This document shows positions 1-25,583 of a stretch of 64,000 bases of DNA, one piece after another. Within the stretch, counting starts at the first letter, position 1; every line of letters starts with the position of its first letter. Made by a program: the position numbers and the translations under genes. The notes below the pieces were generated by a model. The model saw only the letters and a list, made by a program, of their open reading frames with translations, made no database searches and was not told where the DNA came from. The DNA lies in NCBI GenBank assembly GCA_946616835.1, contig CAMOJK010000001.1, positions 8,894 through 72,893 of the forward strand. The letters run 5' to 3'. This stretch comes from an uncultured Lachnospiraceae bacterium. Its GTDB lineage: Bacteria > Bacillota > Clostridia > Lachnospirales > Lachnospiraceae.

Positions 1-1098
1 TACATAGAGAAGTATCTTACAGAGCATGAGGAACGGAAGCTGAATCTTTCGGCAACGCTTGATGCTTCGTCTGCCTATGCTGATGCCGATTATGTAGTCA
101 TTGCGGCACCGACTAATTACGATCCAAGGAAGAATTTCTTTGATACCTCGGCCGTGGAAAATGTCATCTCGGCGGTTTTGGCAGCTAATAATTCGGCGCT
201 AATGGTTATTAAATCCACTGTTCCTGTGGGATACACCGAATCGGTCCGGGAGAAGTTTCATACTAAGAATATCATATTCAGCCCGGAATTTCTCCGTGAA
301 TCGAAGGCGCTCTACGACAATCTGTATCCAAGCAGGATAATTGTGGGAACCACCGACAGCACAAGGGCTAAGGCGGAGATATTTGCAGGGCTACTTAAGG
401 ATGCGGCAGAAAAGCCTGATGTTGATGTTCTTTTAATGGGGCTTACAGAAGCTGAAGCGGTGAAGCTCTTTGCCAACACTTACCTTGCACTCAGGGTATC
501 ATATTTTAACGAGTTGGATACTTATGCGGAGATGAAGGGGCTTAATACAAGTGATATTATCAAAGGCATAAGCCTTGATCCCAGGATAGGCGACTACTAC
601 AATAACCCTAGTTTCGGTTATGGCGGATACTGTCTTCCCAAGGATACAAAACAGCTGCTGGCTAATTACCACAATGTTCCGCAGAACATGATATCTGCCA
701 TTGTAGAGAGTAACAGGACCAGAAAGGATTTCATAGCAGACAGGGTGCTTGATATTGCAGGACTTTACGGAAATTCAGAGGAGTACACCCACAGAAGGGA
801 AGAACAGACTGGAAATATAGTGGTGGGTGTCTATAGACTGACTATGAAGTCCAATTCCGACAACTTTAGGCAGAGCAGCATACAGGGCGTCATGAAGAGA
901 ATCAAGGCAAAGGGAGCTACCGTGATTGTATATGAACCGACATTGGAAGATGGAAGTACCTTTTTTGGGTCCGTGGTCGTAAATGATTTGGAAAAGTTCA
1001 AAAATAAGAGCAATGCCATAATTGCTAACCGTTACGAATCGGTATTAGATGATGTTAAGGAAAAGGTGTATACGAGGGATCTGTTTAGGCGGGATTGA
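1..1098 (+). CDS. ugd: UDP-glucose 6-dehydrogenase (5' partial; frame open from base 1)
   Basis: [44 protein letters not shown] (catalytic Cys), KSNSDNFR and C-terminal [11 protein letters not shown] motifs. Confidence 0.96.
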
Positions 1099-1162
1099 GC
1101 CATTAAATGACGAAGCGCTAGCAGAAACATTGTACAAATGATACTGTGGAATGATGACTATA

Positions 1163-1363
1163 GCGGAGCTGGAAATACTAACATCTGTTAATTTAGTCAG
1201 AAAAGGTGTACAATGCTCTGTTGTATTAAATATTACATGTGATTTTGTATACAGGAACCCGATAATCCCATAGGATGAGCAACTCTCCCATGGGTGAGCC
1301 TCGAAGGATATAGCGGCAGCCAGTGGGCAGTGCCTTGCGGTGTTGTATGGAGTGGCTATGGGC
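1163..1363 (+). repeat. ~200-bp non-coding element, copy 1 (-10-like TACAAT at 1209-1214, then structured leader)
   Basis: Aligns with 3989-4188 (core GATTTTGTATAC-R-GAACCCGATAATCCCATAGGATGAGCAACTCTCCC); hairpins at 1267-1294 and 1327-1346. Confidence 0.9.
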
Positions 1364-1525
1364 CTGAGGGACTTTGGTCGCTTCAGAGAATGTATACAGA
1401 CTGACAGATAAAAAAAGCGAAATGCATTGATGATTATTAGGAGATGGCGGTACCCTCGGAAAAAAGATGGTACTTCCATCATATGTATGAGCTGAAATTA
1501 TTCTTACAAAAAAGGAGAAACAGAA

Positions 1526-2197
1526 TTGACTAGATTTTTTGACATATTATTTTCATTATTGGCAGTAATAGTGTTAACCCCTTTCATGATTCCTATCATG
1601 ATAGGCCTGAAGCTAACCGGTGAGCATGACATATTCTACAGGCAGGAAAGGATCGGGAAGGGCGGCAAGCCATTCAATCTTCTTAAGTTTGCCACGATGT
1701 TACGGAACAGTCCGAATATGGCGGGCGGGTTCTACACGGCAGAAAATGATCCCAGAATACTTCCCATGGGAAAATTCCTCCGCAAGACCAAAATCAACGA
1801 GCTTCCTCAGCTGCTTAACATACTTAAGGGCGACATGAGTGTGATAGGCTACAGGCCCCAGGTGAAGAAGCAGTATGATTCATACAGCGAGGATGTCAGG
1901 GCTGCGCTGGCAAAGAGCCGTCCGGGCTTGTCCGGAATCGGTCCGATAGTATTCAGGTCGGAGGAAGAAATCCTGCAGCAGTTCAAGACTCATGAAGAGC
2001 GGGATGAATTTTATAAAAATGTGATTACCCCATACAAGGGCCAGCTGGAAGTCTGGTACAGTGAGAACCGAAGTGTGGGCATGTACTTCAGGCTGATATT
2101 TATGACGGTCGAAGTGGTGCTGGATCCTAAGAGCAAGGGGTGGAAGAAGCTTAAAGGGATTCCTAAGGCTCCGGCAGAACTGGAGAAGTATCTGTAA
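1526..2197 (+). CDS. Priming sugar transferase (short polyprenyl glycosylphosphotransferase, Bac_transf family)
   Basis: RFFDI N-terminus with one TM; FYRQERIG, KFATM, DPRI, LRKTKINELPQL, GDMSVIGYRP, RPGLSG; GGAG RBS before TTG start. Confidence 0.92.
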   Translation: MTRFFDILFSLLAVIVLTPFMIPIMIGLKLTGEHDIFYRQERIGKGGKPFNLLKFATMLRNSPNMAGGFYTAENDPRILPMGKFLRKTKINELPQLLNILKGDMSVIGYRPQVKKQYDSYSEDVRAALAKSRPGLSGIGPIVFRSEEEILQQFKTHEERDEFYKNVITPYKGQLEVWYSENRSVGMYFRLIFMTVEVVLDPKSKGWKKLKGIPKAPAELEKYL

Positions 2198-2260
2198 GGA
2201 AGCCTGGAAAATTCGCTAAATGTAAGGTGAATTCATTACATAAGAAGGCAGATGGAAACT

Positions 2261-2338
2261 ATGATTACAGGCATTTATTATGTAGCGATTTTAATTTCTT
2301 CTGAAGAATGTCTGGATTTCCATAAGAGGTTAATTTAA
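2261..2338 (+). pseudogene. 5' remnant of VOC/glyoxalase gene (25 codons)
   Basis: MITGIYYVAILISSEECLDFHKRLI* versus MITGIHHIALLVSSEECLDFYKKLG of the intact gene at 4335; upstream GGCAGATGGAA also shared. Confidence 0.88.
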
Positions 2339-2366
2339 ATAATAATTACATGGGGACAAATGTGAA

Positions 2367-2774
2367 TTGGAACAGAAATATCCGGATTATTTCCCGCAGG
2401 GCTGCCCGCCGGCAGATGCCGAAAAGGGAGATAAAGAGTTATATAGATTTTGTAAAGGAATAACAACTGAGAAAAGCGATTTTGTATCTTACTACATAAA
2501 CAACCCTGAAAAGTATAAGAATAAAGTGAATAGTTATGGCTTGTCGGTTTTTGGAAGTATCGATGATTGTTTGTCAGCATATAGAAAATCGCCGTATATA
2601 TTTGGAAAGTATCGGTCCATTTCTAAGGGTACTACAAATATAGAAAGAGGCTCGTATAAGAACACACCATCTAAAACAAATCCGGCACATATAACATGGT
2701 GGGTGTGTGATGGAGTAAAGCCAGAGACATTTTTTGTAACAGTTCATGTGATGGGGAATGAAAGCAATGGATGA
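2367..2774 (+). CDS. Hypothetical protein, possible ADP-ribosyltransferase-like toxin (CPPxDA family)
   Basis: 135 aa; FPxxCPPxDA, LYR, DFxS, GLSV and HxTWW motifs in ART-like order; overlaps the next gene. Confidence 0.55.
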   Translation: MEQKYPDYFPQGCPPADAEKGDKELYRFCKGITTEKSDFVSYYINNPEKYKNKVNSYGLSVFGSIDDCLSAYRKSPYIFGKYRSISKGTTNIERGSYKNTPSKTNPAHITWWVCDGVKPETFFVTVHVMGNESNG

Positions 2775-3390
2775 CCGTGAATTGAAAGTTAAAGGAATAG
2801 GAATTCTGACTTCGGAGAAAATCTATTTGTACTATGAGGAACCGCTGATTTTTTTGAGCAGAGATAAGTTAGAAAACAGATATCTTATGATCAGACAGGC
2901 GGATGAAAATCCGGTTTGGCTTGGGGTTGCTGTTTCATCCAAAAGACTCGGAGAGTTAGAGAGTAACCGGATAGAAATCAGAAGTGCCTTTCTTGATCCG
3001 GAGAATGGTTATGTGTTGAAGGTGTCAGAGACAAGTGATTTGTGTGATGTGGAGTATCTGACTGCTGATGAATTGAAGGCGGATATGCTTCCTTTTCCGG
3101 GAGAGTATTTGGATTATGATGTATCGGAAAAAGATGCACCTTTAGATACTTTGCTGGCGGTGTACAAAAATGCCACTTCGAAATTAGGGGTTTCTGTAGA
3201 AGATATCAAATCTTTTAGCCCCCAGTGTATGAGAAAGCATATTGAACAAAAAAGCGGTGAAAAGATTCGCTTTATTTCAGAGTTTCCGACTATTGGGCGA
3301 GGGAATGTGCTGAGAGACAACATCATTACAAGAGAAGTGCTTGACAGAGAAATCGATGGATTATTAGGAATAGGTAGCAATAATGACTGA
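2767..3390 (+). CDS. DUF6575-like protein with extra ~85-aa C-terminal domain
   Basis: YLYYEEPLIF...RYL...WL...VSxxRL...IEIRSAFLDPE pattern; tail FISEFPTIGRGNVLRD; ATG 2767 has better RBS spacing than 2758. Confidence 0.55.
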   Translation: MDDRELKVKGIGILTSEKIYLYYEEPLIFLSRDKLENRYLMIRQADENPVWLGVAVSSKRLGELESNRIEIRSAFLDPENGYVLKVSETSDLCDVEYLTADELKADMLPFPGEYLDYDVSEKDAPLDTLLAVYKNATSKLGVSVEDIKSFSPQCMRKHIEQKSGEKIRFISEFPTIGRGNVLRDNIITREVLDREIDGLLGIGSNND

Positions 3391-3835
3391 AAAGGATGTA
3401 TATATTTTTTATAATGAAAGGGTTAAGGTCGCGTATAGCGAGATTGAAGCAAGAGGAAACGCGCTTCCAATAGAACTGTTATTTGAAATTAATTCTGCGT
3501 TTGATCATCTGAAGCGGTATCATGTGGACGGACAAAGCGAAGAAGAAGCTGCACAGAAGGCATATGCACATTTAAAAAGAGGTGTTTTGGATGCGTATAA
3601 AATAAAGCTGAAGTACTTTAATGAGGAGTATCAGAAACTATTTTCAGACAGTGAGAACAAATGCAAGAACAATGATACTGAATGTATACACAATGCTATA
3701 AGGGATCGAAAAAAGATATCTGAATTAGCCACAAAAGCAAGATTATCAGAAGGTAGTGATGATGTATCGGATGCGTTTGACGGATGGTATGCAGTTTCGA
3801 TTCAAATAGATGAATTTGAAAAGAAGTATTTCTAG
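3383..3835 (+). CDS. Hypothetical alpha-helical protein (HEPN-like or His-rich bundle), related to 10109-10672
   Basis: LPIELLFEINSAFDH...HLKRGVLD motif; overlaps upstream gene by 8 bp. Confidence 0.6.
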   Translation: MTEKDVYIFYNERVKVAYSEIEARGNALPIELLFEINSAFDHLKRYHVDGQSEEEAAQKAYAHLKRGVLDAYKIKLKYFNEEYQKLFSDSENKCKNNDTECIHNAIRDRKKISELATKARLSEGSDDVSDAFDGWYAVSIQIDEFEKKYF

Positions 3836-3891
3836 CTGATAGCGTAATTGGTTGTGATTAGCTACAAAATGGTTGAGAGTTAAGGTTTAAT

Positions 3892-3940
3892 AAGGCAGGC
3901 TTATCCATTATAATCGTATGTGGTGAAGCTTGCCTTTTTT
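3892..3940 (+). terminator. Rho-independent terminator after the 3-gene cargo
   Basis: AAGGCAGGCTT...AAGCTTGCCTT stem ending in a T6 run. Confidence 0.75.
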
Positions 3941-3988
3941 GGTGGCAAGGCCTAACGCAGTGAGCCTTAAATATTCTTAAATACTCCT

Positions 3989-4188
3989 GCGGAGTAGGAA
4001 TCATTAATATCTGTTAATTTATTCAGAAAAGGTGTATAATTATCCGTTGTACCAAATAATGAGAGCGATTTTGTATACAAGAACCCGATAATCCCATAGG
4101 ATGAGCAACTCTCCCTGGGTGAGTCTCGGAGGACATAGCGGCAGCGGTTAGGCAGTACCTTTTGGTATTGCATGGCGGGGCTATGGGC
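3989..4188 (+). repeat. ~200-bp non-coding element, copy 2 (TATAAT at 4035-4040, then structured leader)
   Basis: Direct repeat of 1163-1363; hairpin GCAGTACC-TTTT-GGTATTGC at 4152-4171. Confidence 0.9.
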
Positions 4189-4192
4189 TTGG

Positions 4193-4275
4193 CGTATTCC
4201 ATAGGTAGGGACGGATTGTGAATGGCGGCATGCCATTTAATCTACTTAAAATGTCGCTATGCTGGCGAACATGGC
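4193..4275 (+). pseudogene. Decayed internal remnant of the priming sugar transferase
   Basis: TATTCCATAGGTAGGGACGGATTGTGAATGGCGGCATGCCATTTAATCTACTTAAA aligns to TATTCTACAGGCAGGAAAGGATCGGGAAGGGCGGCAAGCCATTCAATCTTCTTAAG (~1632-1690). Confidence 0.75.
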
Positions 4276-4334
4276 AAGCCTGCCAAATGTAAATGGAGGT
4301 TCATTGTATACGAGAGAGGGCAGATGGAAGGACT

Positions 4335-4691
4335 ATGATTACAGGCATTCATCATATAGCACTTCTTGTTTCTTCCGAGGAATGCCTGGACTTCTATAAG
4401 AAGCTAGGTTTTACGGAGACATTCCGTAAGGAGCGTGCAAAGGATAAAATCATCCTATTAGATGGCTATGGAATGCAGCTGGAAGTATTTATCGATAATA
4501 GTCATCCAGTAAAACTGACGGGTACAGACGAGCCTCTAGGCTGTAGGCATTTTGCATTGCGTGTGGATAATCTGGAAAGCACATTAGCTGAGTTGAAACT
4601 GAATCACACAGACATAAGAACCGATTGGCAGGGAATTAGATACTGCTATATCACTGATCCTGATGGAAATCAGGTGGAGTTGCATGAGTAG
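4335..4691 (+). CDS. VOC (glyoxalase/bleomycin-resistance) family protein
   Basis: IHHIAL, FYKKLGF, LEVF, RHFALRVD, YITDPDGNQVEL. Confidence 0.92.
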   Translation: MITGIHHIALLVSSEECLDFYKKLGFTETFRKERAKDKIILLDGYGMQLEVFIDNSHPVKLTGTDEPLGCRHFALRVDNLESTLAELKLNHTDIRTDWQGIRYCYITDPDGNQVELHE

Positions 4692-5814: not shown

Positions 5815-6546
5815 ATGGCACAGTGTACAGCACCAATAAGAGGACATAGATCCGAGGCAGCAGCGGAGGCTTGTCCAGTTTGTGGAGGGCGTGGACGATA
5901 TTATTCGTCATTCATGTCATATCAGTCCTATGGCTATAATCCTTATTCAAAGAGTAGTTCAAGTATATCAAACGCACATAGCTCTTCAAGTTCATCTACA
6001 TCATCTACTTCTTTGAAGAAAAGAGCCAGATGGTCACCATCGGGGTCAACAGTTCTTTATACGCCAGCGCAGTTACGGACACTTGAACCTGTGCGAAATA
6101 ATATTCTAAAGCAACCGAAGACCCCGGAAAAATATGATATGTTTTTATGCCATGCTTGGGACGACAGAAAGGAAGCGGCGAAGGATTTGTACGATAAGCT
6201 GACGGCAAGGGGAATTAATGTCTGGTTCAGCGAAAAAGACCTGCAGTTAGGAACTAATATGTTACGTGAAATCGATAAAGGATTGTCTAAATCTCGTGTT
6301 GGGCTTGTTCTTGTAACACCGGCTCTTTTGACGAAAATTGAAGAGGAGGGAGTTGCCGAGAAAGAGTTATCAGCACTGTTGGCAAAAGACAGGCTTATTC
6401 CTATTGTGCACAATACGACATATGATGCACTCCGAGATATTAGTCCGCTTTTGGGTTCAAGAAGCGGACTTGACACGAGTGAGGATTCGATGGATGAAAT
6501 AGCGGCAAAACTTGCCGAATTGTTTACTGAAGAGGCTGAAGAATGA
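5815..6546 (+). CDS. TIR-domain protein with N-terminal C-x6-H-x8-C-x2-C motif and Ser-rich linker
   Basis: YDMFLCHAWDD, VWFSE, IDKGLSKSRVGLVLVT, EKEL (putative catalytic Glu), LIPIVH; AAGGAG RBS. Confidence 0.88.
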   Translation: MAQCTAPIRGHRSEAAAEACPVCGGRGRYYSSFMSYQSYGYNPYSKSSSSISNAHSSSSSSTSSTSLKKRARWSPSGSTVLYTPAQLRTLEPVRNNILKQPKTPEKYDMFLCHAWDDRKEAAKDLYDKLTARGINVWFSEKDLQLGTNMLREIDKGLSKSRVGLVLVTPALLTKIEEEGVAEKELSALLAKDRLIPIVHNTTYDALRDISPLLGSRSGLDTSEDSMDEIAAKLAELFTEEAEE

Positions 6547-7433
6547 AAAGAATCCTGATAACCGGAGCAAATTCATATATAGGCGCAAGCTTTGAGGTAT
6601 ATGTTAAAGCGCATTATTCACAAGAGTTTAAGGTCGATACCATTGACATGATCGATGGTACCTGGCGTGAGGCAGACTTCTCATCCTATGATGTAATCTT
6701 CCATGTGGCAGGTCTCGCTCATGCTGATGTAGGAAAAGTGGATGAAGCCATAAAGCAGAAGTACTACGCCATAAATACGGACCTTGCAATAGAGACCGCT
6801 AAGAAAGCAAAGGCAGATGGCGTAAAACAGTTTGTCTTTATGAGTTCAGCCATAATATATGGTGATTCTGCACCTTATGGCAAGAAAAAGTGTATAACAA
6901 AAGATACAAAGCCGCATCCTTCAAATTTCTATGGTGATAGTAAGTGGCAGGCTGATAAGGGGATAAGAAAACTGGCGGATGAAAATTTTGTTACGACAGT
7001 TTTGCGTCCGCCTATGATATATGGTAAAGGGAGTAAGGGAAACTATCCTACATTGGCAAAGATGGCTAAGAAGTTGCCAGTTTTTCCTGATGTACAAAAC
7101 GAAAGATCTATGCTATATATAGAAAATCTCTGTGAATTTCTCTGTCAGGTAATGCTTCGTGGCAAGGGTGGGGTATTCTGGCCTCAAAATAGTGAGTACA
7201 GTAGGACAAGTCAGCTTGTAAAAATAATCGCGAAGACAAACAAACATGGAATCATAGTCAGTAAGGTATTCAACCCGTTTGTTTTTATAGCGGCAAGATT
7301 TCCTGGAAAAATTGGAGGACTGGCAAATAAAGCATTTGGAAATCTATCCTATGAAAAAAAAATGTCGAGTTATGATTTCGATTATCAGACTGTAGATTTG
7401 GAAGAAAGTATAAAGCGGACGGAGACTAATTAA
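6543..7433 (+). CDS. NAD-dependent epimerase/dehydratase (UDP-sugar 4-epimerase/reductase)
   Basis: ILITGANSYIG, FHVAGLAH, YGDSK (YxxxK), RPPMIYG. Confidence 0.92.
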   Translation: MKRILITGANSYIGASFEVYVKAHYSQEFKVDTIDMIDGTWREADFSSYDVIFHVAGLAHADVGKVDEAIKQKYYAINTDLAIETAKKAKADGVKQFVFMSSAIIYGDSAPYGKKKCITKDTKPHPSNFYGDSKWQADKGIRKLADENFVTTVLRPPMIYGKGSKGNYPTLAKMAKKLPVFPDVQNERSMLYIENLCEFLCQVMLRGKGGVFWPQNSEYSRTSQLVKIIAKTNKHGIIVSKVFNPFVFIAARFPGKIGGLANKAFGNLSYEKKMSSYDFDYQTVDLEESIKRTETN

Positions 7434-7435
7434 TT

Positions 7436-8266
7436 ATGCATAAAAAGCTATTATCACGTTTTCCAACTGAAAAATTGATATTTCATAAGCCTTCTGGACA
7501 AACATATGTTGTTGAAGGGCTGGTGGGGACAAATAGCGCTATTATGAGTGAAGATGTTACGATTCCTATTGAGCCAGATGATTATTTTGAACGATTCATA
7601 CCTAATGGCATTAAAGAGTATTTTAAGGTTACTGATACAGGATATATTAAGGGCACATCGGGGATTCCAGATCATTATCAGACAAAGGTTGTAAAGATGA
7701 AAGCTGATCAATTGATGTTTGAGAGTCAAAGCGAAGACAGAATAGGGTATAAAGAGCATAATGCAAAAAGAAATCAGATTTTTATCTCACATAGGACAAC
7801 GGATGTCCCAGTTGCAGAAATGATAAAAGATTTCCTTGTAAATACGGGTATTCAAAATGAGAAAGTGTTTTGTTCGTTCCTTCCAGGCAATGATGTGAAT
7901 GTGAAAATATCAAGTGGGTTAAAAGAAAGATTTAATAATTGTGCTGTAATTATTCTGATACTTTCTAAAGACTACTATAACAGTCCTTATTGTTTGAATG
8001 AAGCGGGTATAGCGTGGTATCTTGATGCTGAAGTTGTGTCCATTCCCATAGGTTTGCCAGAAATTGACCACAGTAAGAAGGTAGGACTTTTTAATAACGA
8101 ATACAAGCTGAGAAGACTTGATAGCGAAGGTGATGTTTCGTACATGTATGATGTAGTCCATGAAAGATTGAAATCGAAAAATATGAAACATAGCATAATT
8201 ACACAGGAAATAAAAAAACTTGCAGATAGGTATGCTATGTATATAGCCGAGAAAAAAATTGTGTAA
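7436..8266 (+). CDS. TIR-domain protein with N-terminal beta-rich domain of unknown function
   Basis: QIFISH, VFCS, ILILSKDYYNSPYCLNEAG TIR_2 motifs; N-terminal ~90 aa IEPDDYFER.PNG..EYFKV...HYQ. Confidence 0.85.
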   Translation: MHKKLLSRFPTEKLIFHKPSGQTYVVEGLVGTNSAIMSEDVTIPIEPDDYFERFIPNGIKEYFKVTDTGYIKGTSGIPDHYQTKVVKMKADQLMFESQSEDRIGYKEHNAKRNQIFISHRTTDVPVAEMIKDFLVNTGIQNEKVFCSFLPGNDVNVKISSGLKERFNNCAVIILILSKDYYNSPYCLNEAGIAWYLDAEVVSIPIGLPEIDHSKKVGLFNNEYKLRRLDSEGDVSYMYDVVHERLKSKNMKHSIITQEIKKLADRYAMYIAEKKIV

Positions 8267-8400
8267 TTGTATTTAAAAAGTATATTTGTTGCATAATAGC
8301 AGAATTGAGATAAAGTGCTTTATACGAAGCATGTTGCGTGGAAGAGAGGGAAAGTGGCAAAATATATGGAAAGAAAAATGAAAATAAGGAAGACTTGTAG

Positions 8401-9516
8401 ATGAACGATATTGGTCAAAAAGGATATCTAGATATTATTCCACCATTTCTGTCAAAAGAAACGCAAATACACTATTACCAAGATCTTGAAAGGAATATTA
8501 AGTTTAAGCGAAATATAGAGAATCAATTCATATGCATGAAAGGATTTTCTTCATCGACACCATTGTTCCACTCAGTTGCGTTTGATGAATTTAGCTTCGG
8601 CGGGGGATTGTACTTTCGGTGGAATGGAAAGGGAGTGGTGGTTGATCCTGGCATAGGTTTCTTGAGTCTTATGCACAAACATAATATTTTTTTAGCGGAT
8701 GTCGATATAGTAATTGTTACGCATTCTCATTTGGATCATAATCAGGATGTTCGTAGTATTGCTTCATTGCAGTATGACTTAGTCAATCAAAGAAAACGAA
8801 CAAATAAGTTTTTCTCTAGTTTTTTTACGGTTGAAAGTCGGGATTCGGCTTATCATATTGAATGGTATTTGGATGAGACTACCGCTGAAATGATGAAGGG
8901 GCAGATAGAAAATGTTCATCCTTTAGGAGATATGTGTGATGGGAAAACGCATGATATATCATCTGCACTTGATATTGGAATGCGGGTCTTTACTACTAAG
9001 CATTGTGATTTTTCTTATGGGATAAAGCTTTTTTTCAAGCAGAAAAATAGAGAATTCGTGTGGGGATATACATCGGACACAGGTTACTTTGATGGCTTAT
9101 CAGATAATTTGGAAGGATGTGATGCTCTCGTCCTTAATATCTCAGAAGTAGATTCGGCCGAATATAATAGAGAGCAGTTTAAGGAGAATCATTTAGGTTT
9201 TAATGGATGTGTAAGTCTTCTTGAAAAAAATCACCCAAAGCTTACTGTTATTTCCGAATTTGCTTGCATGAGAGGGGATAATCGTCATCTAATTGTAAAG
9301 AATATTGTACGATATTCAGACGAACAGATGAAATTAAGAATTCTACCGGCAGAAATAGGCTTGACTATTGATATATCCGGTGAGATGATGAAATGTTCAA
9401 TATGTGGGGAAGTGGTGTCAATTAAAGAGATATATTCGATACGATCAGAGAAAGATTATTGGAAAATCAGATATGTCTGCAAGGATTGTATTATACAAGC
9501 GGGGAATTTTCGGTGA
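8401..9516 (+). CDS. MBL-fold metallo-hydrolase (nuclease-like) with C-terminal CxxC...CxxC zinc ribbon
   Basis: GFSSSTP, GGGLYFRWNGKGVVVDPG, THSHLDH (HxHxDH), KH, YTSDT, NHLG, KCSICG...VCKDC. Confidence 0.88.
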   Translation: MNDIGQKGYLDIIPPFLSKETQIHYYQDLERNIKFKRNIENQFICMKGFSSSTPLFHSVAFDEFSFGGGLYFRWNGKGVVVDPGIGFLSLMHKHNIFLADVDIVIVTHSHLDHNQDVRSIASLQYDLVNQRKRTNKFFSSFFTVESRDSAYHIEWYLDETTAEMMKGQIENVHPLGDMCDGKTHDISSALDIGMRVFTTKHCDFSYGIKLFFKQKNREFVWGYTSDTGYFDGLSDNLEGCDALVLNISEVDSAEYNREQFKENHLGFNGCVSLLEKNHPKLTVISEFACMRGDNRHLIVKNIVRYSDEQMKLRILPAEIGLTIDISGEMMKCSICGEVVSIKEIYSIRSEKDYWKIRYVCKDCIIQAGNFR

Positions 9517-9932
9517 AGGAATATGAATTTATAATAAAAGCAATAGAAGGTTATTGGAGTGATCAGATAGCGGCTACCATTTGTAGGGAAAGCTATGAGC
9601 AAAAAACAAAAATTGGTGGTTTTCAGGAAATGTTTAGAGAGTACGGCAAACTTCATGAGTTATTTAGTTCTGGACAAGAAAGCGACTGGCAATTGTATAT
9701 TGATTCTATGAAGGGAAAAAGGGAGGAACGTTTAAACGCTTTTATTGCAGATTTAGAAATAGAAGAAGTAGGAGTTGATATAGGAAAGATAAAAAGTCGG
9801 TATTTGGAAGAACTGGAAAAAGAAGAAGATCAGACTGTTGAGAAAAGGGTTTATATTTATCCATATCTTGTTGAACATATGCGAGAATTGAATTCAAAAC
9901 AAAGGGGTGAACAAAATGGCACGAAAATTTGA
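9513..9932 (+). CDS. Hypothetical helical, acidic protein
   Basis: GTGA overlap with MBL stop codon, GGGGA RBS; 139 aa. Confidence 0.65.
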   Translation: MKEYEFIIKAIEGYWSDQIAATICRESYEQKTKIGGFQEMFREYGKLHELFSSGQESDWQLYIDSMKGKREERLNAFIADLEIEEVGVDIGKIKSRYLEELEKEEDQTVEKRVYIYPYLVEHMRELNSKQRGEQNGTKI

Positions 9933-10101
9933 AGAAAAGTATTCGGCACTCGTTTGTGTAGATTTACCTAAGAAAAGGTTAAAATCTGTGGAAAATAGGG
10001 GTGGGTATTTATTTATGGATGAAAAAAAGTCTGATCCTTGGGTGGGTAAAAAACCGCATGCCCCAAACGGATTTGTAGAAAAATATTGCAAGGAGCATTA
10101 G
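9916..10101 (+). CDS. Small hypothetical protein (61 aa)
   Basis: AAGGGGTG RBS; fills the gap between neighbouring genes. Confidence 0.55.
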   Translation: MARKFEEKYSALVCVDLPKKRLKSVENRGGYLFMDEKKSDPWVGKKPHAPNGFVEKYCKEH

Positions 10102-10108
10102 GGATAAG

Positions 10109-10672
10109 ATGGGCAGATTACGACTAGTTTCAGAATATGAGAAAGATGTTATTTGTGAAAATGTATATCATGATGGAATTGTGCAGACATATGATTTTTT
10201 GATTTCATGTGAATCGTTTGCCAATATCATCGGTGAAATGCTTCCAGAGACCTGCTACACTAATTTTAGAGATTGTATATTTCATTATTGGAAATTGTAT
10301 CGGACTTTTGAGAATACGGAGATAGATAAGCAGTTATTTGCAGTTATTGAGCACTCAAAAAGGGCCAAAACTGATGCAAGTGTGGCTTTAATGAAGGAAT
10401 GTGAAATTATTTTGGGGGAACTTCTTGTTGAAAAATCATTTTCGGAAGAATTAGAACGACGATTAATAAAAATGCATGACAAAATAGCCAATGTAGAGAT
10501 GCACTTAAGAATGTCAGGAATGATGATAGGGGAGAGTTCTTTTTTCTGTTTAGATGATGAGCAGATTTTGGATTTATTTGATGAAATGTTGAGGATTTTT
10601 AATGAAGATGCAATAGATATATTTAAAGAGCATGTAAGAAAAAGGAAAATGAATAGTTACAATAATAATTAA
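10109..10672 (+). CDS. Hypothetical alpha-helical protein with RxxxxH (HEPN-like) motif
   Basis: LPETCYTNFRDCIFH...HSKRAKTD; same motif spacing as 3383-3835. Confidence 0.6.
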   Translation: MGRLRLVSEYEKDVICENVYHDGIVQTYDFLISCESFANIIGEMLPETCYTNFRDCIFHYWKLYRTFENTEIDKQLFAVIEHSKRAKTDASVALMKECEIILGELLVEKSFSEELERRLIKMHDKIANVEMHLRMSGMMIGESSFFCLDDEQILDLFDEMLRIFNEDAIDIFKEHVRKRKMNSYNNN

Positions 10673-10674
10673 AG

Positions 10675-11901
10675 ATGAGTAAGAAAAAAAAACATATCCT
10701 CCTGATTTCCCAATATTTCTACCCAGAAACCTTCCGCGTCAACGATATGGCCCAGGAGTGGGTAAAACGTGGATATAAAGTGACTGTACTCACAGGCATT
10801 CCGAATTATCCAATGGGAAAGTTTTTTGAAGGATATGATTATTGGCATAAGAGAAAAGAAAAATGGAATGGTGTACGGATTATCCGTATCCCATTAATTC
10901 CCAGAGGAAACAGTTCCAATAAACTGCTGAATGCTATGGGAATGACGGCGAACTACCTTTCCTTTGTTGCATCTGGCTGGATATGGGTAAAAAGGCATAA
11001 TATCCACGCAGATCTGGTATTTACTGTAGAAGTGAGTCCCATGACGCAAGCACTGATCGGTGTATGGTATGGAAAGAAATATCATGTACCGTCTTTTCTT
11101 TATGTACAGGATCTCTGGCCTGAAAATGTGGAAACCGTAACCGGAATTCATAACAGGGTTATAATTGGCCCGATAGACCGAATGGTAGATAAGATTTATC
11201 GGGAGACAGATATGATATTTACTATCAGCCCGAGCTTTTTAAAGGCGATAGCTAATCGAAAGACCCCTGTTGACCGAAAGAAGGTACATTACTGGCCGCA
11301 GTACGCAGAGGATTTCTACCGGCCTATGAAGCCACAAGCGATAAAGGGGATCGATAATAATGATGGCTGTTATAAAATAGCTTTTACCGGAAATATCGGT
11401 ACGGCTCAGGGGCTGGATGTACTTCCAAAGACAGCAGAATTATTAAAAGACGAAAATGTGAAGTTCATAATTGTAGGTGATGGTAGATATCAGCCTGAAT
11501 TTGAGGAACAAATTAAGAAAAGAAATGTAGAGGCTAAGTTTGTTATGATACCGCGCGTTCCGTCAGAAGAGATTCCTAGAATCCTTAGTGTATGTGACGC
11601 CGGATTTATCAGCTTTAACAAAACCTCACTTTGGGGAAATACCATACCCGCAAAGCTCCAGTCATATATGGCATGCGGTAAAGCAGTTATTGCATCAGCC
11701 TCCGGAGAGACAAAAAGAATTATTGAAGAAGCTGGATGCGGAATCTGCTGTGAGATTGGAAATGCCAAGAAGCTGTCAGAAGGCATAAAGGTCATCATGC
11801 ATCAGGATAATAAAAAAATGGGGAAGAATGCCGTAGAGTATTTTAGAAAACATTTTGATAAGAATATGCTGATGGATGAGATGGATGAGTATATTAACTA
11901 A
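10675..11901 (+). CDS. GT4 glycosyltransferase, WbuB/Cap5L-like
   Basis: SQYFYPE, VLTGIPNYP, QDLWPE, FTGNIGTAQGL, PAKLQSYMACGK. Confidence 0.92.
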   Translation: MSKKKKHILLISQYFYPETFRVNDMAQEWVKRGYKVTVLTGIPNYPMGKFFEGYDYWHKRKEKWNGVRIIRIPLIPRGNSSNKLLNAMGMTANYLSFVASGWIWVKRHNIHADLVFTVEVSPMTQALIGVWYGKKYHVPSFLYVQDLWPENVETVTGIHNRVIIGPIDRMVDKIYRETDMIFTISPSFLKAIANRKTPVDRKKVHYWPQYAEDFYRPMKPQAIKGIDNNDGCYKIAFTGNIGTAQGLDVLPKTAELLKDENVKFIIVGDGRYQPEFEEQIKKRNVEAKFVMIPRVPSEEIPRILSVCDAGFISFNKTSLWGNTIPAKLQSYMACGKAVIASASGETKRIIEEAGCGICCEIGNAKKLSEGIKVIMHQDNKKMGKNAVEYFRKHFDKNMLMDEMDEYIN

Positions 11902-11912
11902 GAGGCACTTAC

Positions 11913-13061
11913 TTGAAGAAGATACAGAAACGAGCCTATCAGCGCTGTTCCCGTTGTGTAATGGACACTACGGACTCGAAGATTATATTCGATGAAAATG
12001 GTGTCTGTGACCACTGCAGGAATTTCGATAAAAATATAAAACCATACTGGAAGCCGCAGGAAAACCGTTTTGATGAACTGGAAGAAATATCGAAGAAAAT
12101 CAGGGAAGCTGGTAAGGGACATGATTATGACTGTATCCTGGGGCTTTCTGGCGGAGCGGACAGCTCTTATCTGGCATACATCGCAGTAGAGATAATGCAT
12201 CTTCGGCCGCTTGTTTTCGTGGTGGATACCGGATGGAATCTTAATGTAGCGGTTGAGAATATAGAGAAGATTGTCAAGGGACTAAATCTTGATATGTATA
12301 CTGAGGTGGTCAATTGGAAGGAGATGGCTGATCTGCAACTGTCTTTTTTCAAGGCATCGATCTCCTCTTGTGACCAGCCGCAGGATCATGCTATATTTGC
12401 GGCATTATATAATTATGCCGTAAAACATAAGATTAAATATGTCCTCACAGGATCCAATAGTGCAACGGAGTTTATCCGACCACCGGTGGAATGGCTATAT
12501 ATGAACGATACTGTGATGCTAAAGGATATCCACAAAAGATTCGGGAAAGTTCCGCTGAAAACATATCCGCTCTGCGGCATGCTGAAATACCGTATCCTGT
12601 ATCGCTATTTCTATGGTATGAAGAGAGTGTTCCCATTGGATTATGTTGTATATGATAAGGAAAAAGCGATGGAACTGCTCCATGAGAAGTACGGCTGGAC
12701 AAAATATGAGAACAAACATTATGAAAATGTGTTCACCCGTTTCTTTGAAGGTTATTATCTGCCGCATAAATTTGGATTTGATACTAGAAAGAATGTATGT
12801 TCCACGCAGATACTTACAGGGACTATGACCCGAGAGGAAGCATTGGAGATACTGGATAAGCCGCCGTATGATCCGGAACAGATGGAACTGGATAAGGAGT
12901 ATGTGGCTAAGAAGCTGGGAATTACAGCTGAGAAGTTTGATGAGATTATAGCGCTTCCAAACAAGACTCCGTCAGATTACCGGAATCAGATGTGGGTGAT
13001 TCGATTTGGAGTTTTTATTTCTAGATTGATCGGGGCAGAGAATAGGAATCTGAGGGTATAA
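11913..13061 (+). CDS. N-acetyl sugar amidotransferase (WbpG/WbuX family)
   Basis: CSRCVMDT, CDHC, LGLSGGADSS PP-loop, DTGWN, PQDHA, KHYEN. Confidence 0.92.
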   Translation: MKKIQKRAYQRCSRCVMDTTDSKIIFDENGVCDHCRNFDKNIKPYWKPQENRFDELEEISKKIREAGKGHDYDCILGLSGGADSSYLAYIAVEIMHLRPLVFVVDTGWNLNVAVENIEKIVKGLNLDMYTEVVNWKEMADLQLSFFKASISSCDQPQDHAIFAALYNYAVKHKIKYVLTGSNSATEFIRPPVEWLYMNDTVMLKDIHKRFGKVPLKTYPLCGMLKYRILYRYFYGMKRVFPLDYVVYDKEKAMELLHEKYGWTKYENKHYENVFTRFFEGYYLPHKFGFDTRKNVCSTQILTGTMTREEALEILDKPPYDPEQMELDKEYVAKKLGITAEKFDEIIALPNKTPSDYRNQMWVIRFGVFISRLIGAENRNLRV

Positions 13062-13700
13062 ATGATAGCGATACTTGATTATGGTCTAGGCAATCTGGGC
13101 TCTATCTCAAATATGCTCAAGGTCATAGGTGAGAAATCTAAGATTACAAGTGATAAAAACATAATAAAAACGGCAGATGGTATCATACTTCCTGGGGTAG
13201 GCGCTTTTGATGCAGGAATGAGTAGACTGGATGAGACAGGGCTGACTGAAATAATAAAGGCAGAGGCGCAGGATGGAGTGCCTATACTTGGGATATGTCT
13301 CGGTATGCAGTTGCTTGGAAGGTGTAGTGAAGAGGGAAGTTTGTCAGGACTGTCCTTAATACCGTTTGAGTGTAAGAGGTTTCGGTTTAATGATAATGCA
13401 TTGAAGATTCCTCATATGGGATGGGATACTGTGGATTTTAAAAAGCAGCATCCGATTCTTCAGGGGCTTGCTGGACAGCAAAGATACTATTTTGTTCATT
13501 CCTATCATGCGGTATGTGATGAATCGGCTGATGTGCTAATGACTTGTGATTACGGATATGAGTTCGCTGCGGCTGTAGTGAAGGATAATGTGATAGGGAT
13601 GCAGTTCCATCCTGAAAAAAGCCATGATTTTGGATTGGCGATATTCAGCAATTTTGTAAAAATCTGCAGAGAATATGGTAATCGAGGCGGAGGAATGTAA
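13062..13700 (+). CDS. hisH: HisH-like glutamine amidotransferase (polysaccharide-associated, WbuY-like)
   Basis: DYGLGN, LPGVGAF, GICLGMQ, PHMGW, YFVHSY, QFHPEKS. Confidence 0.92.
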   Translation: MIAILDYGLGNLGSISNMLKVIGEKSKITSDKNIIKTADGIILPGVGAFDAGMSRLDETGLTEIIKAEAQDGVPILGICLGMQLLGRCSEEGSLSGLSLIPFECKRFRFNDNALKIPHMGWDTVDFKKQHPILQGLAGQQRYYFVHSYHAVCDESADVLMTCDYGYEFAAAVVKDNVIGMQFHPEKSHDFGLAIFSNFVKICREYGNRGGGM

Positions 13701-14470
13701 TGTTTACGAGACCTAGGATTATTCCTACGCTGCTAATCGATGACAGGGATCTGATCAAGACAGTACAGTTTGGGAAGCGTACCTATCTTGGGGATCCGGT
13801 TAATGCAGTCAAGATATTTAACAGAAAAGGTATTGATGAGTTATCTGTTTTGGATATCGGTGCAACAAAGAATGACAGGGAGCCGGATTACGAACTTTTA
13901 AAAGATATTGCCAGCGAGGCGTTTATGCCTCTAAGCTGCGGCGGCGGAATTCGGACATTGGATCAGATTCATGAACTGCTTGCCATAGGTTATGAAAAGG
14001 TGGTTATAAATACTGCGCTAGTGAAAAATCCTGGGTTGATTACTAAGGCTGCTGAACGGTATGGTTCACAATCAGTTGTAGCTTCTATCGATGCAAAAAA
14101 GTGTATGGGGGATTACAAGTGTTTTGTGACTGATGGAACGGAAGAGTCAAAATGGAGCCCGACAGAACTTGCTAAAGAGGCAGAGAGGCTGGGCGTAGGT
14201 GAAATCATCATTAACTTTATTGATAATGATGGTATGATGAAAGGGTATGATATTGCATTAGTGAAACAGGTAGCCGATGTCGTAAGCGTTCCTGTGGTAG
14301 CCATAGGCGGAGCTGGAGGCATCAAAGATCTGAAGAAGGTATTGCAGGAAGGGCATGCACATGCTGCATCCGGCGGAAGTATGTTTGTATACTATGGCAG
14401 ATTAAAGGCTGTCCTGATTACAGCACCCAGTGAGAAAGAATTAAAAGAAGCGGGAATATACAAAAGCTGA
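13700..14470 (+). CDS. hisF: HisF-like cyclase paralog (AglZ/HisF2, WbuZ-like)
   Basis: PRIIPTLL, GDPVNAVKIFN, EAFMPL.CGGGI, DGMMKGYD, GGAG. Confidence 0.92.
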   Translation: MFTRPRIIPTLLIDDRDLIKTVQFGKRTYLGDPVNAVKIFNRKGIDELSVLDIGATKNDREPDYELLKDIASEAFMPLSCGGGIRTLDQIHELLAIGYEKVVINTALVKNPGLITKAAERYGSQSVVASIDAKKCMGDYKCFVTDGTEESKWSPTELAKEAERLGVGEIIINFIDNDGMMKGYDIALVKQVADVVSVPVVAIGGAGGIKDLKKVLQEGHAHAASGGSMFVYYGRLKAVLITAPSEKELKEAGIYKS

Positions 14471-14494
14471 TTGATACATAAGGAGTGTATAAGA

Positions 14495-15664
14495 ATGACT
14501 TATCCGGTAATCAAGCCGAAAAATAACAGAAAATACCAGATTTGCACTTGCTGTGTTATGGATACTTCGGACGAAGATATTACATTCGATGCAAATGGCG
14601 TGTGTATGCGCTGTAATGAATACAAGGAGCGGATTGAACCTGAGTGGAATCATGGAAAAGGTCATGAAAAAGAACTGCATGAGCTTATAAAAGCAATAAA
14701 GAAATCGGGTGAAGGAAAGAAGTACGATTGCATCCTAGGGCTGTCCGGCGGGCTGGATTCTTCCTATATGCTTCATTTGGCAGTAAAGGAATGGGGGCTT
14801 AGACCTTTTGTTTTCCATATTGATGCCGGCTGGAATCTTCCAGTTGCGGAGGAGAATATAAAGAGGATGACGAAGAAACTGGGTGTAAAGCTTCACATCA
14901 AACATATGGACAGAAAAGAAATGATGGAGATGCAGCTGGCATGGTTCCGTACCGGCTTAGAAATGCTTGATGCACCGCAGGATCATGCTTTCATTGCCTT
15001 GATTGACAAGTATTCTGTAAAACTAGGTGTGAAGTACATACTGAACGGATATAATATCTGCACGGAGATTATTGCAGATCCTGCATCATGGGAAAGATGT
15101 TCAGGTCCTACCGGAGATGGTACCTATATTAGGGATGTGGTAAAGAAGCATTGCAATGTACCAATCAAGGAATATATATATACAAGCGGATTGAAGCATA
15201 AGTTTATAAATCCTTATATAAAAGGAATTAAAACTGTGAAGCCTCTAAATTATGTGGAATTCACAAGGAAATCCATGATGAAAACGCTGTCAGAGGAGTA
15301 CGGCTATGTCCCATATGGTCAGAAACATTTCGAAGATCTGATTACGAAATTTTTGGAAGGTTGGTGGCAGCCGACTAGATTTGGGCATGATATCAGAAGG
15401 GCACAGCTGAGTAGTCTGGTGGTTACTGGACAGCTGAGCAGGGATGAAGCACTGGAAATTCTGGAAAAGCCGCCGTTGACGGAAGAGGAGAGCAAGAAGC
15501 TATTCAGAGAAGTAGCAAAAAGATTGCAGATATCAGAAGATGAACTGATGAAATATCACAATATGCCGGAATGTACGGAGAAATTCAGAAGCCAGGAGAA
15601 GTTTTACAATCTGGGGATTAAGGTATATGAAACTCTTGGGCTGGAGAAGAGGATAAGGAAATAG
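14495..15664 (+). CDS. Second N-acetyl sugar amidotransferase (WbpG/WbuX family)
   Basis: CTCCVMDT, LGLSGGLDSS, DAGWN, PQDHA, KHFED; AGGAG RBS. Confidence 0.92.
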   Translation: MTYPVIKPKNNRKYQICTCCVMDTSDEDITFDANGVCMRCNEYKERIEPEWNHGKGHEKELHELIKAIKKSGEGKKYDCILGLSGGLDSSYMLHLAVKEWGLRPFVFHIDAGWNLPVAEENIKRMTKKLGVKLHIKHMDRKEMMEMQLAWFRTGLEMLDAPQDHAFIALIDKYSVKLGVKYILNGYNICTEIIADPASWERCSGPTGDGTYIRDVVKKHCNVPIKEYIYTSGLKHKFINPYIKGIKTVKPLNYVEFTRKSMMKTLSEEYGYVPYGQKHFEDLITKFLEGWWQPTRFGHDIRRAQLSSLVVTGQLSRDEALEILEKPPLTEEESKKLFREVAKRLQISEDELMKYHNMPECTEKFRSQEKFYNLGIKVYETLGLEKRIRK

Positions 15665-15673
15665 GGGTGTAGT

Positions 15674-16846
15674 TTGAAAGTATTGGTTGTTGATAACACA
15701 CATTTAATCAGGGATAAGGAAGGAAGGTATTATTCGGAGTCCGTATACAGTTATGAATTTTTGGAGAGATATCTGGCTGTTTTTGATGCAGTTAGATTCA
15801 TCGGTAAAACAAAATTTGTCGATACGGCAGGAGCAAATTGCAAAAGAGTTGACGGACCGGGGGTAGAAATCGTACCGCTGCCTTGGTATCAGGGTATGGG
15901 GCAGATGCTAAAGGTTTTTCCAAGATTAATAGGAATATACAGACATCTGTTGGATGATTGTGACTGCTGTATCCTAAGAATCGCACAAATAGAAAGTTTT
16001 TTGACATATATTTTTGCAAAGCGGAGGGGAAAACCATTTGCAGTAGAAGTTGTGAATGATCCGGCTACTTTTACTGATATGCCGAATTTATATAGACTTT
16101 TAAGTATTTACATGGTCAAAAAGATGTGTAAGAAAGCAACGGCGGCATCTTATGTGACAAAAGATTTTCTGCAGAAAAAGTATCCAACCGGTGCAAAGTA
16201 TACAACAAATTATTCTTCAATAGAACTGCATAAAGAAAATATAAAATGTTTGGTAGAGCCGTACTCGGGAAATGGGCCGCTAAGAATAGTTCATGTGGCA
16301 AATTCTATAAATACAGACATAAAGGGACATTACTGCTTGATAAATGCAGCCAAAAGAGTCAGGGATGCGGGATATGATGTTAAGGTTGATTTTATAGGTG
16401 ACGGAAATAAAGTTCTTGAATATAAAGAATATATAGAACACAATATGCTGCAAAACGATATTCGTTTTATAGGACGCATAAACGGAAGAACAGAATTATT
16501 ACAGGTATTAAAAGAATATCATTTAATGGTGCTTCCAACTAAAATGGAGGGACTTCCAAGGACGATAATTGAAGCTATGGCAGTGGGAATGCCGTGTATT
16601 TCAACACCAATAGCAGGTGTGCCGGAACTGTTGCCGGGGGAATGTCTGATAACGCCTGATGATGATAAGGCTTTCGCTGAAAAGATAATAGACTGCATTA
16701 ATAATCCAGAGACGATGAAAAAGATGGGGGAAGAGAATATAGAAAAAGCCAAAGAGTATACAAATGATATTCTGTCGGCGAGAAGAAGCGAGATGTATAG
16801 GTTTTTAAAAAGTGAAATAATCAAGAGGAAGAGTGACAGTAATTGA
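15674..16846 (+). CDS. GT4 glycosyltransferase
   Basis: KGH, FIGDG, EGLPRTIIEAMA.G.P (EX7E). Confidence 0.9.
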   Translation: MKVLVVDNTHLIRDKEGRYYSESVYSYEFLERYLAVFDAVRFIGKTKFVDTAGANCKRVDGPGVEIVPLPWYQGMGQMLKVFPRLIGIYRHLLDDCDCCILRIAQIESFLTYIFAKRRGKPFAVEVVNDPATFTDMPNLYRLLSIYMVKKMCKKATAASYVTKDFLQKKYPTGAKYTTNYSSIELHKENIKCLVEPYSGNGPLRIVHVANSINTDIKGHYCLINAAKRVRDAGYDVKVDFIGDGNKVLEYKEYIEHNMLQNDIRFIGRINGRTELLQVLKEYHLMVLPTKMEGLPRTIIEAMAVGMPCISTPIAGVPELLPGECLITPDDDKAFAEKIIDCINNPETMKKMGEENIEKAKEYTNDILSARRSEMYRFLKSEIIKRKSDSN

Positions 16847-17928: not shown

Positions 17929-17931
17929 TAC

Positions 17932-19353: not shown

Positions 19354-19378
19354 GGCTTACAAGGAGATATATTTATTT

Positions 19379-20821: not shown

Positions 20822-20951
20822 CTTGAAATTCATAGTGAGAAAATAATTGAGAGAGATATATATGATGGTATGAAATATAGTCTTAATCATAGGCAAAAAC
20901 AGTTGTATTGGTGAGCCCTTTGGATGATAAGGACGGATATAGATTTTATTG

Positions 20952-22214: not shown

Positions 22215-22285
22215 TGATTTTTAGTTTTATGTCTTAAACACTACTTATGAAATTACAAAAGACAGGTAAGATAAGGAGTATTAAT

Positions 22286-23143: not shown

Positions 23144-23179
23144 TTAATTATTTCAAATTATAAAAATAGAGGATAGGAT

Positions 23180-25524: not shown

Positions 25525-25583
25525 AGTTAAGGATTGTAATTGTATTCGGTGTTTTTCAACCAACTTATTGAAAAGGAGAAGAA

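What the first reader, a model, noticed from the sequence alone, without database searches (positions are those of the whole stretch)
1163..4188. Duplicated ~200-nt structured leader RNA with pairing-preserving changes and alternative folds
Seen: two copies (1163-1363, 3989-4188), each with a -10-like hexamer followed by a near-invariant core. Hairpin GCAGTACC/GGTATTGC in copy 2 reads GCAGTGCC/GGTGTTGT in copy 1; all three stem changes turn Watson-Crick pairs into G-U pairs on the + strand. A CCCA(T)..GGA.GAG-CAA-CTC-TCC..TGGG hairpin and a YATAGC/GCTATG outer helix are kept in both. The 5' CCCATAG can instead pair with the distal CTATGGG, giving mutually exclusive folds. Both copies precede a priming transferase or its remnant. 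Inference: a cis-regulatory leader, such as a processive-antitermination element or switch, analogous to Bacillus EAR or ops/JUMPstart. I do not recognise it as a named family.
Basis: partly seen in the sequence, partly recalled or inferred. Interest (0 to 1): 0.72.

Follow-up and report, generated by a model that had tools for sequence, protein, structure and literature searches.

The report
Structured leader RNA heading glycan operons
A few closely related gut bacteria carry a roughly 110-base conserved sequence, predicted to fold into two long hairpins, at the front of their sugar-coat gene clusters; it matches no Rfam family and likely helps a dedicated elongation factor (LoaP) keep transcription going through these long clusters, which is untested.

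Summary
The duplicate is real (168/204 identical), but it is a promoter plus a ~110-nt structured core (1258-1363, 4084-4188), not a 200-nt RNA. It was copied inside a larger promoter-leader-transferase-VOC unit whose two halves decayed reciprocally. I found six further full-length homologs, all on the sense strand ahead of genes in glycan clusters, in front of three different first genes. A two-domain fold holds in 90% of cells with four two-sided changes (six related sequences, modest evidence). There is no Rfam match. The core carries an ops-like box, GCGGCAGC, and four homologs end in U5. All four genomes with the element encode one divergent LoaP clade, but they are probably one lineage. 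Best reading (0.4): a LoaP-recruiting antitermination leader lacking the canonical UNCG hairpin. Against it: no excess of downstream terminators, no expression data, and a narrow range (4 of 45 genus genomes, no real hit in 150 family genomes). The scan had no look-alike, only analogous canonical LoaP leaders elsewhere.

The parts
1184..1214 (+). Copy 1 promoter region: imperfect palindrome over the -35 zone (1184-1201) and -10-like TACAAT (1209-1214); DNA-level, predicted
   Evidence: 30/34 identical between copies; same block without the structured core in L008; not picked by the consensus scan because the -35 is weak
1258..1305 (+). Copy 1 domain 1 (P1-P2): long irregular hairpin; apex 1273-1288 with a bulged U and CAA loop
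   Evidence: 32/32 identical to copy 2 over 1258-1289; pairs
1313..1320 (+). ops-like box GCGGCAGC (7/8 to E. coli ops GCGGTAGC), inside the 5' strand of domain 2
1306..1363 (+). Copy 1 domain 2 (P3-P4-P5); terminal hairpin P5 at 1327-1346; no U-tract follows
1526..2197 (+). Bacterial sugar transferase, single PF02397 domain (priming type)
   Evidence: E 5e-49
2258..2332 (+). Remnant of the VOC/glyoxalase gene start
   Evidence: 60/75 identical to 4332-4406
2367..3835 (+). Three unrelated ORFs between the two duplicated units (one DUF6575)
3893..3940 (+). Terminator-like hairpin plus U6 just upstream of the copy 2 promoter
   Evidence: -19 kcal/mol; the only intergenic hit of that scan
4010..4040 (+). 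Copy 2 promoter region: palindrome 4010-4027, TATAAT 4035-4040; predicted
4084..4130 (+). Copy 2 domain 1; apex 4099-4114
4131..4188 (+). Copy 2 domain 2, with ops-like box 4138-4145 and P5 hairpin 4152-4171; its 3' end is fused to the transferase remnant
4184..4297 (+). Decayed internal fragment of the sugar transferase (right end approximate)
   Evidence: 51/66 identical to 1621-1686
4335..4691 (+). Intact VOC/glyoxalase-family gene
   Evidence: PF00903; start placed by the L066 ortholog

Best explanation
This is a conserved ~110-nt sequence behind a predicted promoter at the head of glycan-synthesis gene runs, and it likely works as a 5' leader RNA that recruits the lineage's divergent LoaP elongation factor so that RNA polymerase reads on through the long cluster. 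Shown: duplication, homologs, position, strand, pairing pattern, the ops-like box, a U5 tail in four homologs, and a LoaP gene in every genome that has the element. Inferred: transcription starts near 1221 and 4047; domain 1 folds first; polymerase would pause over the GCGGCAGC box and be loaded with LoaP through the hairpin, the box or both; domain 2 plus U5 would be the weak leader terminator that loaded polymerase ignores. The two window copies have no U-tract, so they would give recruitment without a leader terminator. The two copies arose with a duplication or insertion-duplication of the whole operon head, not of the RNA alone. I put 'a functional structured leader' at about 0.8 and this mechanism at about 0.4.
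For: All 8 distinct full-length copies lie intergenic, on the sense strand, ahead of genes in glycan clusters, before three different first genes: sugar transferase (copy 1, L004, L066, L082; remnant in copy 2), a DegT-type aminotransferase (L063), flavin reductase then PseB (L120, L156). The position moves between genomes, as expected for an element acting at a distance: G044 has it 4.8 kb ahead of the transferase and not directly before it, while G000 and G034 lack it at the flavin-reductase promoter and have it at the transferase. Structure: 39 pairs, 90.0% of cells paired (1/500 shuffles; slid controls 37-49%), four pairs with two-sided change; P5 paired in 77/80 cells over 10 sequences; consensus energy -30.2 on + against -16.5 on -. 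Constraint: 75/79 identical over 1241-1320 against 111/141 in the co-duplicated coding remnants (p=0.0015, window chosen post hoc); core 72% against 56% at fourfold sites of the transferase for L066 (p=0.03). G[CT]GGCAGC in 6 of 6 close homologs; chance within 110 nt 0.4-2.8%; an exact GCGGTAGC in the degenerate G011 copy. ops and Bacteroides opsX use GCG..AGC stems, opsX with an upstream RNA hairpin (PMC11685472, passages and sections 9-10). The LoaP target leader has a hairpin plus a weak terminator (PMC12691694, sections 6, 10, 13, 14). LoaP over the NF033641 cut-off in 10 of 45 genus genomes, including all 4 with the element, which form one 100/100 clade; loaP lies 5.5 kb upstream of the element in G044 and about 4 kb in G011.
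Against: The LoaP co-occurrence is probably one evolutionary event: RecA residues 70-262 are identical in G000, G034 and G044 (G011 has no recA match). No UNCG loop in any copy. The two distant copies (L120, L156a) lack both the ops-like box and the U-tract. The box overlaps paired positions, so RNA pairing alone could conserve it. Domain 1 ends about 17-19 nt before the pause that the box would imply, against 9-16 in Bacteroides, and the pause-site Y/G is not conserved. No ops-like enrichment upstream of loaP genes (1 of 25 sense, 3 of 25 antisense). No excess of terminators downstream: 11 against 10.3 +/- 3.2 in 6001-25999, 1 intergenic hit in 64 kb. Covariation rests on six related sequences in about two groups; two-sided changes alone are not beyond shuffles (49/500; 248/500). 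Whole core against remnants p=0.07; L004 and L082 against fourfold sites p=0.27 and 0.25. G000's own loaP is on another contig (C65) whose cluster has no copy.
Confidence: 0.4

Rival explanations
1. An attenuator or riboswitch-like leader: a ligand (such as a nucleotide sugar) or a protein other than LoaP controls whether domain 2 plus U5 terminates.
For: P3 runs straight into UUUUU in L004, L063, L066 and L082; 16 unpaired columns are invariant over six sequences, including the UAA/GA internal loop and the bulged U; the SD is 35 nt or more downstream, so control would be transcriptional.
Against: No conserved alternative fold; 4 of 8 full-length copies have no U-tract; riboswitch classes are usually far more widespread (general knowledge); no Rfam match.
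Confidence: 0.2
2. A structural 5' leader that protects or processes the mRNA, or a binding site for a post-transcriptional regulator, with no effect on elongation.
For: Stable two-domain fold on the sense strand; the P5 hairpin is repeated within one degenerate leader in G011, as modular binding sites can be; no terminator excess downstream.
Against: Does not explain the ops-like box or the U5 tail; the repeated G011 form folds no better than shuffles (z -0.87).
Confidence: 0.17
3. No RNA function: a promoter-proximal region carried along by duplication and gene shuffling, conserved by recent ancestry or DNA-level protein sites.
For: The duplication covers the whole operon head; single copies fold no better than shuffles; L008 keeps the promoter and has lost the core; very narrow range.
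Against: Core more conserved than flanks and remnants; spacers to the start codon are unalignable (163 against 49-52 nt); in domain 2, seven pairs alternate Watson-Crick and G-U and none Watson-Crick and A-C (lists; 11 against 5 over the whole element, p=0.21).
Confidence: 0.15
4. A small mobile or recombination element (IS end, MITE, attC- or REP-like single-stranded DNA hairpin), or decayed coding sequence.
For: Found at several positions in a locus full of inserted genes; G-T pairs also suit single-stranded DNA.
Against: Only two copies in G000, always in glycan clusters and sense-oriented; none in 50,697 phage or 72,556 plasmid records; no inverted repeat bounds either copy; homolog lengths of 111-115 nt break any shared frame, and all three + frames hold stops.
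Confidence: 0.06

Closest known systems
LoaP and the dfn/mln leader hairpin of Bacillus velezensis (PMC12691694; outline, passages, sections 6, 10, 13, 14 and supplement read)
   Same: Long leader before a biosynthetic cluster, a bulged hairpin followed by a weak terminator (in 4 homologs), a LoaP gene in the same genomes. Both hairpins have a 5'-side pyrimidine bulge three pairs below the loop (my comparison with the supplement's oligo).
   Different: No UNCG loop, no sequence likeness to the dfn hairpin, ~110 nt in two domains rather than ~26 nt; the LoaP here is divergent (39% to the next clade of homologs).
Bacteroides UpxY-opsX and E. coli RfaH-ops/JUMPstart (PMC11685472; passages and sections 9-10 read)
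   Same: Leader of polysaccharide genes; GCG..AGC box at 7/8 to ops; RNA hairpin just upstream of the box.
   Different: Firmicute host with a LoaP-type, not UpxY/RfaH, paralog; hairpin-to-box spacing longer; pause-site bases not conserved; the box sits inside a second RNA domain; no JUMPstart Rfam match.
EAR / epsC motif RNA of Bacillales, RF01735 (PMC2864571 and PMC7858274; passages read)
   Same: Structured RNA tied to exopolysaccharide genes, proposed or shown to promote read-through at a distance.
   Different: No match to the model even at E 10; EAR lies between the second and third eps genes and has a pseudoknot, while this sits directly behind a promoter and I saw none.

Membership tests
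LoaP dfn-type leader hairpin | UNCG tetraloop hairpin | tested here: not met
   Loops are YAA (domain 1) and UUGC, UUUU, AUAU, AUGC, AUGU (P5)
LoaP dfn-type leader hairpin | loaP gene in or near the regulated cluster | tested here: met
   NF033641 130.7 and 131.4 bits, cut-off 125; same contig and strand upstream of the element in G044 and G011; separate contigs in G000 and G034
LoaP dfn-type leader hairpin | Intrinsic terminator in the leader downstream of the hairpin | tested here: inconclusive
   Stem plus U5 in 4 of 8 full-length copies, not in the window copies
LoaP dfn-type leader hairpin | LoaP binds the RNA and antagonises NusA-dependent termination | not testable with these tools
   Needs binding and transcription assays
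ops/opsX (RfaH, UpxY) | Non-template GCG..AGC box in the leader | tested here: met
   GCGGCAGC in 4 and GTGGCAGC in 2 of 6 close homologs; absent from the 2 distant ones
ops/opsX (RfaH, UpxY) | Pause hairpin ending at -9 to -16 and consensus pause bases | tested here: not met
   Domain 1 ends at about -17 to -19; the bases after the box vary
ops/opsX (RfaH, UpxY) | Cognate RfaH or UpxY protein | tested here: not met
   The paralog scores 40 bits to UpxY (cut-off 100) and 33 to RfaH (144.5)
EAR/epsC (RF01735) and JUMPstart (RF01707) | Match to the Rfam covariance model | tested here: not met
   No hit at gathering, at E<=10 over 1000-4400, or at E<=1 in 4 homolog loci
Riboswitch / attenuator | Conserved mutually exclusive fold | tested here: not met
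Riboswitch / attenuator | Ligand-dependent structural change | not testable with these tools
   Needs probing

The most novel reading that the evidence does not exclude
A Firmicute LoaP lineage has swapped the UNCG hairpin for a new composite signal: a bulged RNA hairpin, an RfaH-type ops box on the non-template strand and a built-in terminator, all in 110 nt. That would join the RNA-based (LoaP) and DNA-based (RfaH/UpxY) ways of recruiting NusG paralogs in one element and give an orthogonal antitermination pair.
Probability: 0.2. Interest if true: 0.75.

Novelty: new variant of a known kind. Interest (0 to 1): 0.45.

Why it matters
How LoaP-type factors find their polysaccharide operons outside Bacillus is largely untested; in the papers read here only the dfn UNCG hairpin is defined. 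A compact, synthesizable leader with a candidate partner protein makes the question testable in a B. subtilis reporter. The narrow range (about four species found) limits its general weight.

Tried and rejected
Rfam: nothing relevant. Phage and plasmid records: no match. Viral contigs: 30 and 24 pattern hits, none the element (all 30 scored by nhmmer, 19 of the 30 by the covariance model; the 24); the best-looking, L038, is inside an ORF. LoaP relatives in viral contigs: none. Family BLAST: 7 of 400 short weak hits, none the element. Family covariance searches: 0 of 150 with R2 and 1 of 150 with R3, which lies in a coding region; only 25-36 candidates per genome were scored. G409, G027 and G008, with the nearest other LoaPs, have no R2 match; G011 was also missed by R2 there, so the search loses distant copies. 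Genome-collection pattern: 9 hits, 2 real, both duplicating stretches already counted. One search used a mis-numbered structure and is discarded; one search replaces it. A dfn-hairpin descriptor found 15 hits in G000, none in the window or C65, but only 1 in 29 other loci, so the control did not ring and the test is uninformative. The LoaP clade has RR where PDB chain 8f5g_A has ER, but the other LoaP clades of the genus lack the E as well, so this is not distinctive. TTGTATACAA as a repressor palindrome (family label recalled) is not kept in L004, L063 or L066. Expression: no RNA holder listed. The LoaP-RNA structure paper was not held; its content was not seen. Literature searches gave no description of this motif; most were judged from listings only, and motif catalogues in supplements of the large screens were not examined.
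Full report
1. Observation. The two copies are real: 1163-1366 against 3989-4191, 168/204 identical, one gap, and there are only two in the 3.05-Mb, 86% complete assembly. Identity is uneven: 14/19 at the 5' edge, 30/34 over the promoter block, 15/25 in the spacer, 16/17 in the linker, 32/32 and 13/15 in domain 1, 46/58 in domain 2. So the feature is a predicted promoter (-10 at 1209-1214 and 4035-4040, weak -35, an imperfect palindrome over the -35 zone) followed by a ~110-nt core. The three P5 changes are Watson-Crick to G-U as stated. The alternative helix exists on paper but is negligible in the ensemble and is lost in the other homologs.

2. Origin of the duplicate. The repeat extends to a transferase fragment (4184-4249, 51/66) and the VOC gene start (2258-2332, 60/75). 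L066 shows the single-copy state: element, transferase, VOC. In the window, unit 1 kept the transferase and unit 2 kept the VOC gene, with three unrelated ORFs and a terminator-like hairpin (3893-3940) between. A tandem duplication and an insertion-duplication fit equally; I cannot tell them apart. Copy 2's 3' end is fused to the transferase fragment, so whatever followed its stem was deleted.

3. Context. The window is a glycan cluster with 90% of its length in + strand ORFs. Record titles and a protein name from close relatives read Lachnospiraceae. One laid run labelled gut metagenome holds near-identical pieces (X2).

4. Homologs. Close: L004 (G034), L063, L066, L082 (metagenome scan, 4 real of 25 hits, one of them repeating L004's element). 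Distant: L051/L120 (G044; 30-32 bits) and L156:9150-9295 (G011; motif scan). Partial: a degenerate form in G011 with the P3 arms enclosing repeated P5-like hairpins and no domain 1, and L008, which keeps the promoter and has no core. In the genus, 4 of 45 genomes match R3 (R3 was built from these sequences). In the family, 0 of 150 match R2 and 1 of 150 matches R3 by chance inside a gene. An exact pattern over the 185,579-genome collection gave 2 real hits of 9, both already counted. The element was therefore found only in one narrow lineage; these searches lose distant copies. Every copy is intergenic, sense-oriented and ahead of a gene in a glycan cluster: sugar transferase, an aminotransferase (identified by eye against the L120 protein), flavin reductase followed by PseB, or an FnlA-like dehydratase. 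Nested deletions from one operon head could explain part of this variety, but the promoters differ and G011 has two sites.

5. Structure. On six close sequences, 39 pairs in five helices are formed in 90.0% of cells (shuffles 87.6 +/- 0.7, 1/500; slid controls 37-49%), with four two-sided changes (49/500) and covariation score 0.169 (7/500). The structure was derived from these sequences and they form about two groups, so this is modest evidence. P5 holds in 77/80 cells over ten sequences with A-U, G-U and G-C at one pair (31/500). Consensus folding favours the + strand (-30.2 against -16.5; crude column-shuffle z -5.8). Single copies are not unusually stable (L004 z -2.0). Sixteen unpaired columns are invariant. 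Constraint tests are mixed: p=0.0015 for the best window, 0.07 for the whole core; p=0.03, 0.25 and 0.27 against fourfold sites. In strain contigs laid on copy 2, listed differences fall at 17 positions in 4037-4068 and 4 in 4069-4178 (16 rows not shown, and some contigs are copy-1 types). It is not coding: lengths 111-115 nt and stops in all + frames.

6. Mechanism. The SD lies at least 35 nt beyond the core, so translational occlusion is unlikely. Three features point to elongation control. (a) P3 runs into UUUUU in L004, L063, L066 and L082, not in the window copies or the distant pair. (b) G[CT]GGCAGC follows domain 1 by 7-8 nt in 6 of 6 close homologs; E. coli ops is GCGGTAGC and Bacteroides opsX pairs a GCG..AGC box with an upstream RNA hairpin (PMC11685472). 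Chance is 0.4-2.8% per 110 nt (post hoc). (c) G000 encodes a LoaP; the four element-bearing genomes hold one divergent clade, upstream of the element on the same contig in G044 and G011. In B. velezensis LoaP needs a leader hairpin and overrides a NusA-dependent leader terminator (PMC12691694). Against: shared ancestry explains the co-occurrence (31 of 45 genomes compared); there is no UNCG loop; pause geometry and bases do not fit opsX; the distant copies lack the box; ops-like boxes are not enriched before loaP genes (1 of 25 against 3 of 25); terminators are not in excess downstream (only 6001-25999 was scanned against shuffles). I commit to LoaP recruitment at 0.4, within about 0.8 for a functional leader of some kind.

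7. Comparison and novelty. It works, if the reading holds, like the LoaP dfn leader and like opsX, but fails defining tests for both and for EAR and JUMPstart. No Rfam family matches, eight literature searches showed no description, and the scan's index had no look-alike sequence. Unseen supplements of large motif screens and the LoaP-RNA structure paper could bear on this.

Noticed in passing
window 5815-6546: TIR-domain gene matching Thoeris ThsB (PADLOC E 6e-103) inside the glycan cluster; no ThsA partner was looked for.
   Followed up: partly
window 7436-8266 and 8401-9516: Second TIR gene (SpbK-like, E 6e-26) and a metallo-beta-lactamase-fold gene inserted among glycan genes.
   Followed up: partly
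window 2356-2675: Contigs of three runs (two studies) skip these 320 bases, removing most of ORF 2367-2774: a variable insertion or deletion between strains.
   Followed up: no
window 1443-1480: Hairpin in copy 1's long spacer with GGCGGTAC (1446-1453, one mismatch to the ops core); its reverse strand scores as a terminator.
   Followed up: partly
G000:C65:3155-3658 (L010): Divergent LoaP with FKNY in place of the FPGY motif kept by other LoaPs; it heads a second glycan cluster whose genes lie on one contig with the transferase in G044, so C65 and C1 may be neighbours.
   Followed up: partly
L156:12290-12520 (G011): Degenerate, expanded form of domain 2 with several P5-like hairpins and an exact GCGGTAGC, ahead of an FnlA-like dehydratase.
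   Followed up: partly
L066:341-955: The transferase behind the element is split by a premature stop in this contig.
   Followed up: no
window 47686-49107: A second, full-length PF02397 priming transferase near the far end of the cluster, without the element.
   Followed up: no
L159, L124, L126 (G012, G031, G017): Orthologs of the small transferase sit directly upstream of a different loaP clade, behind a DnaB-like gene end in two of them.
   Followed up: no
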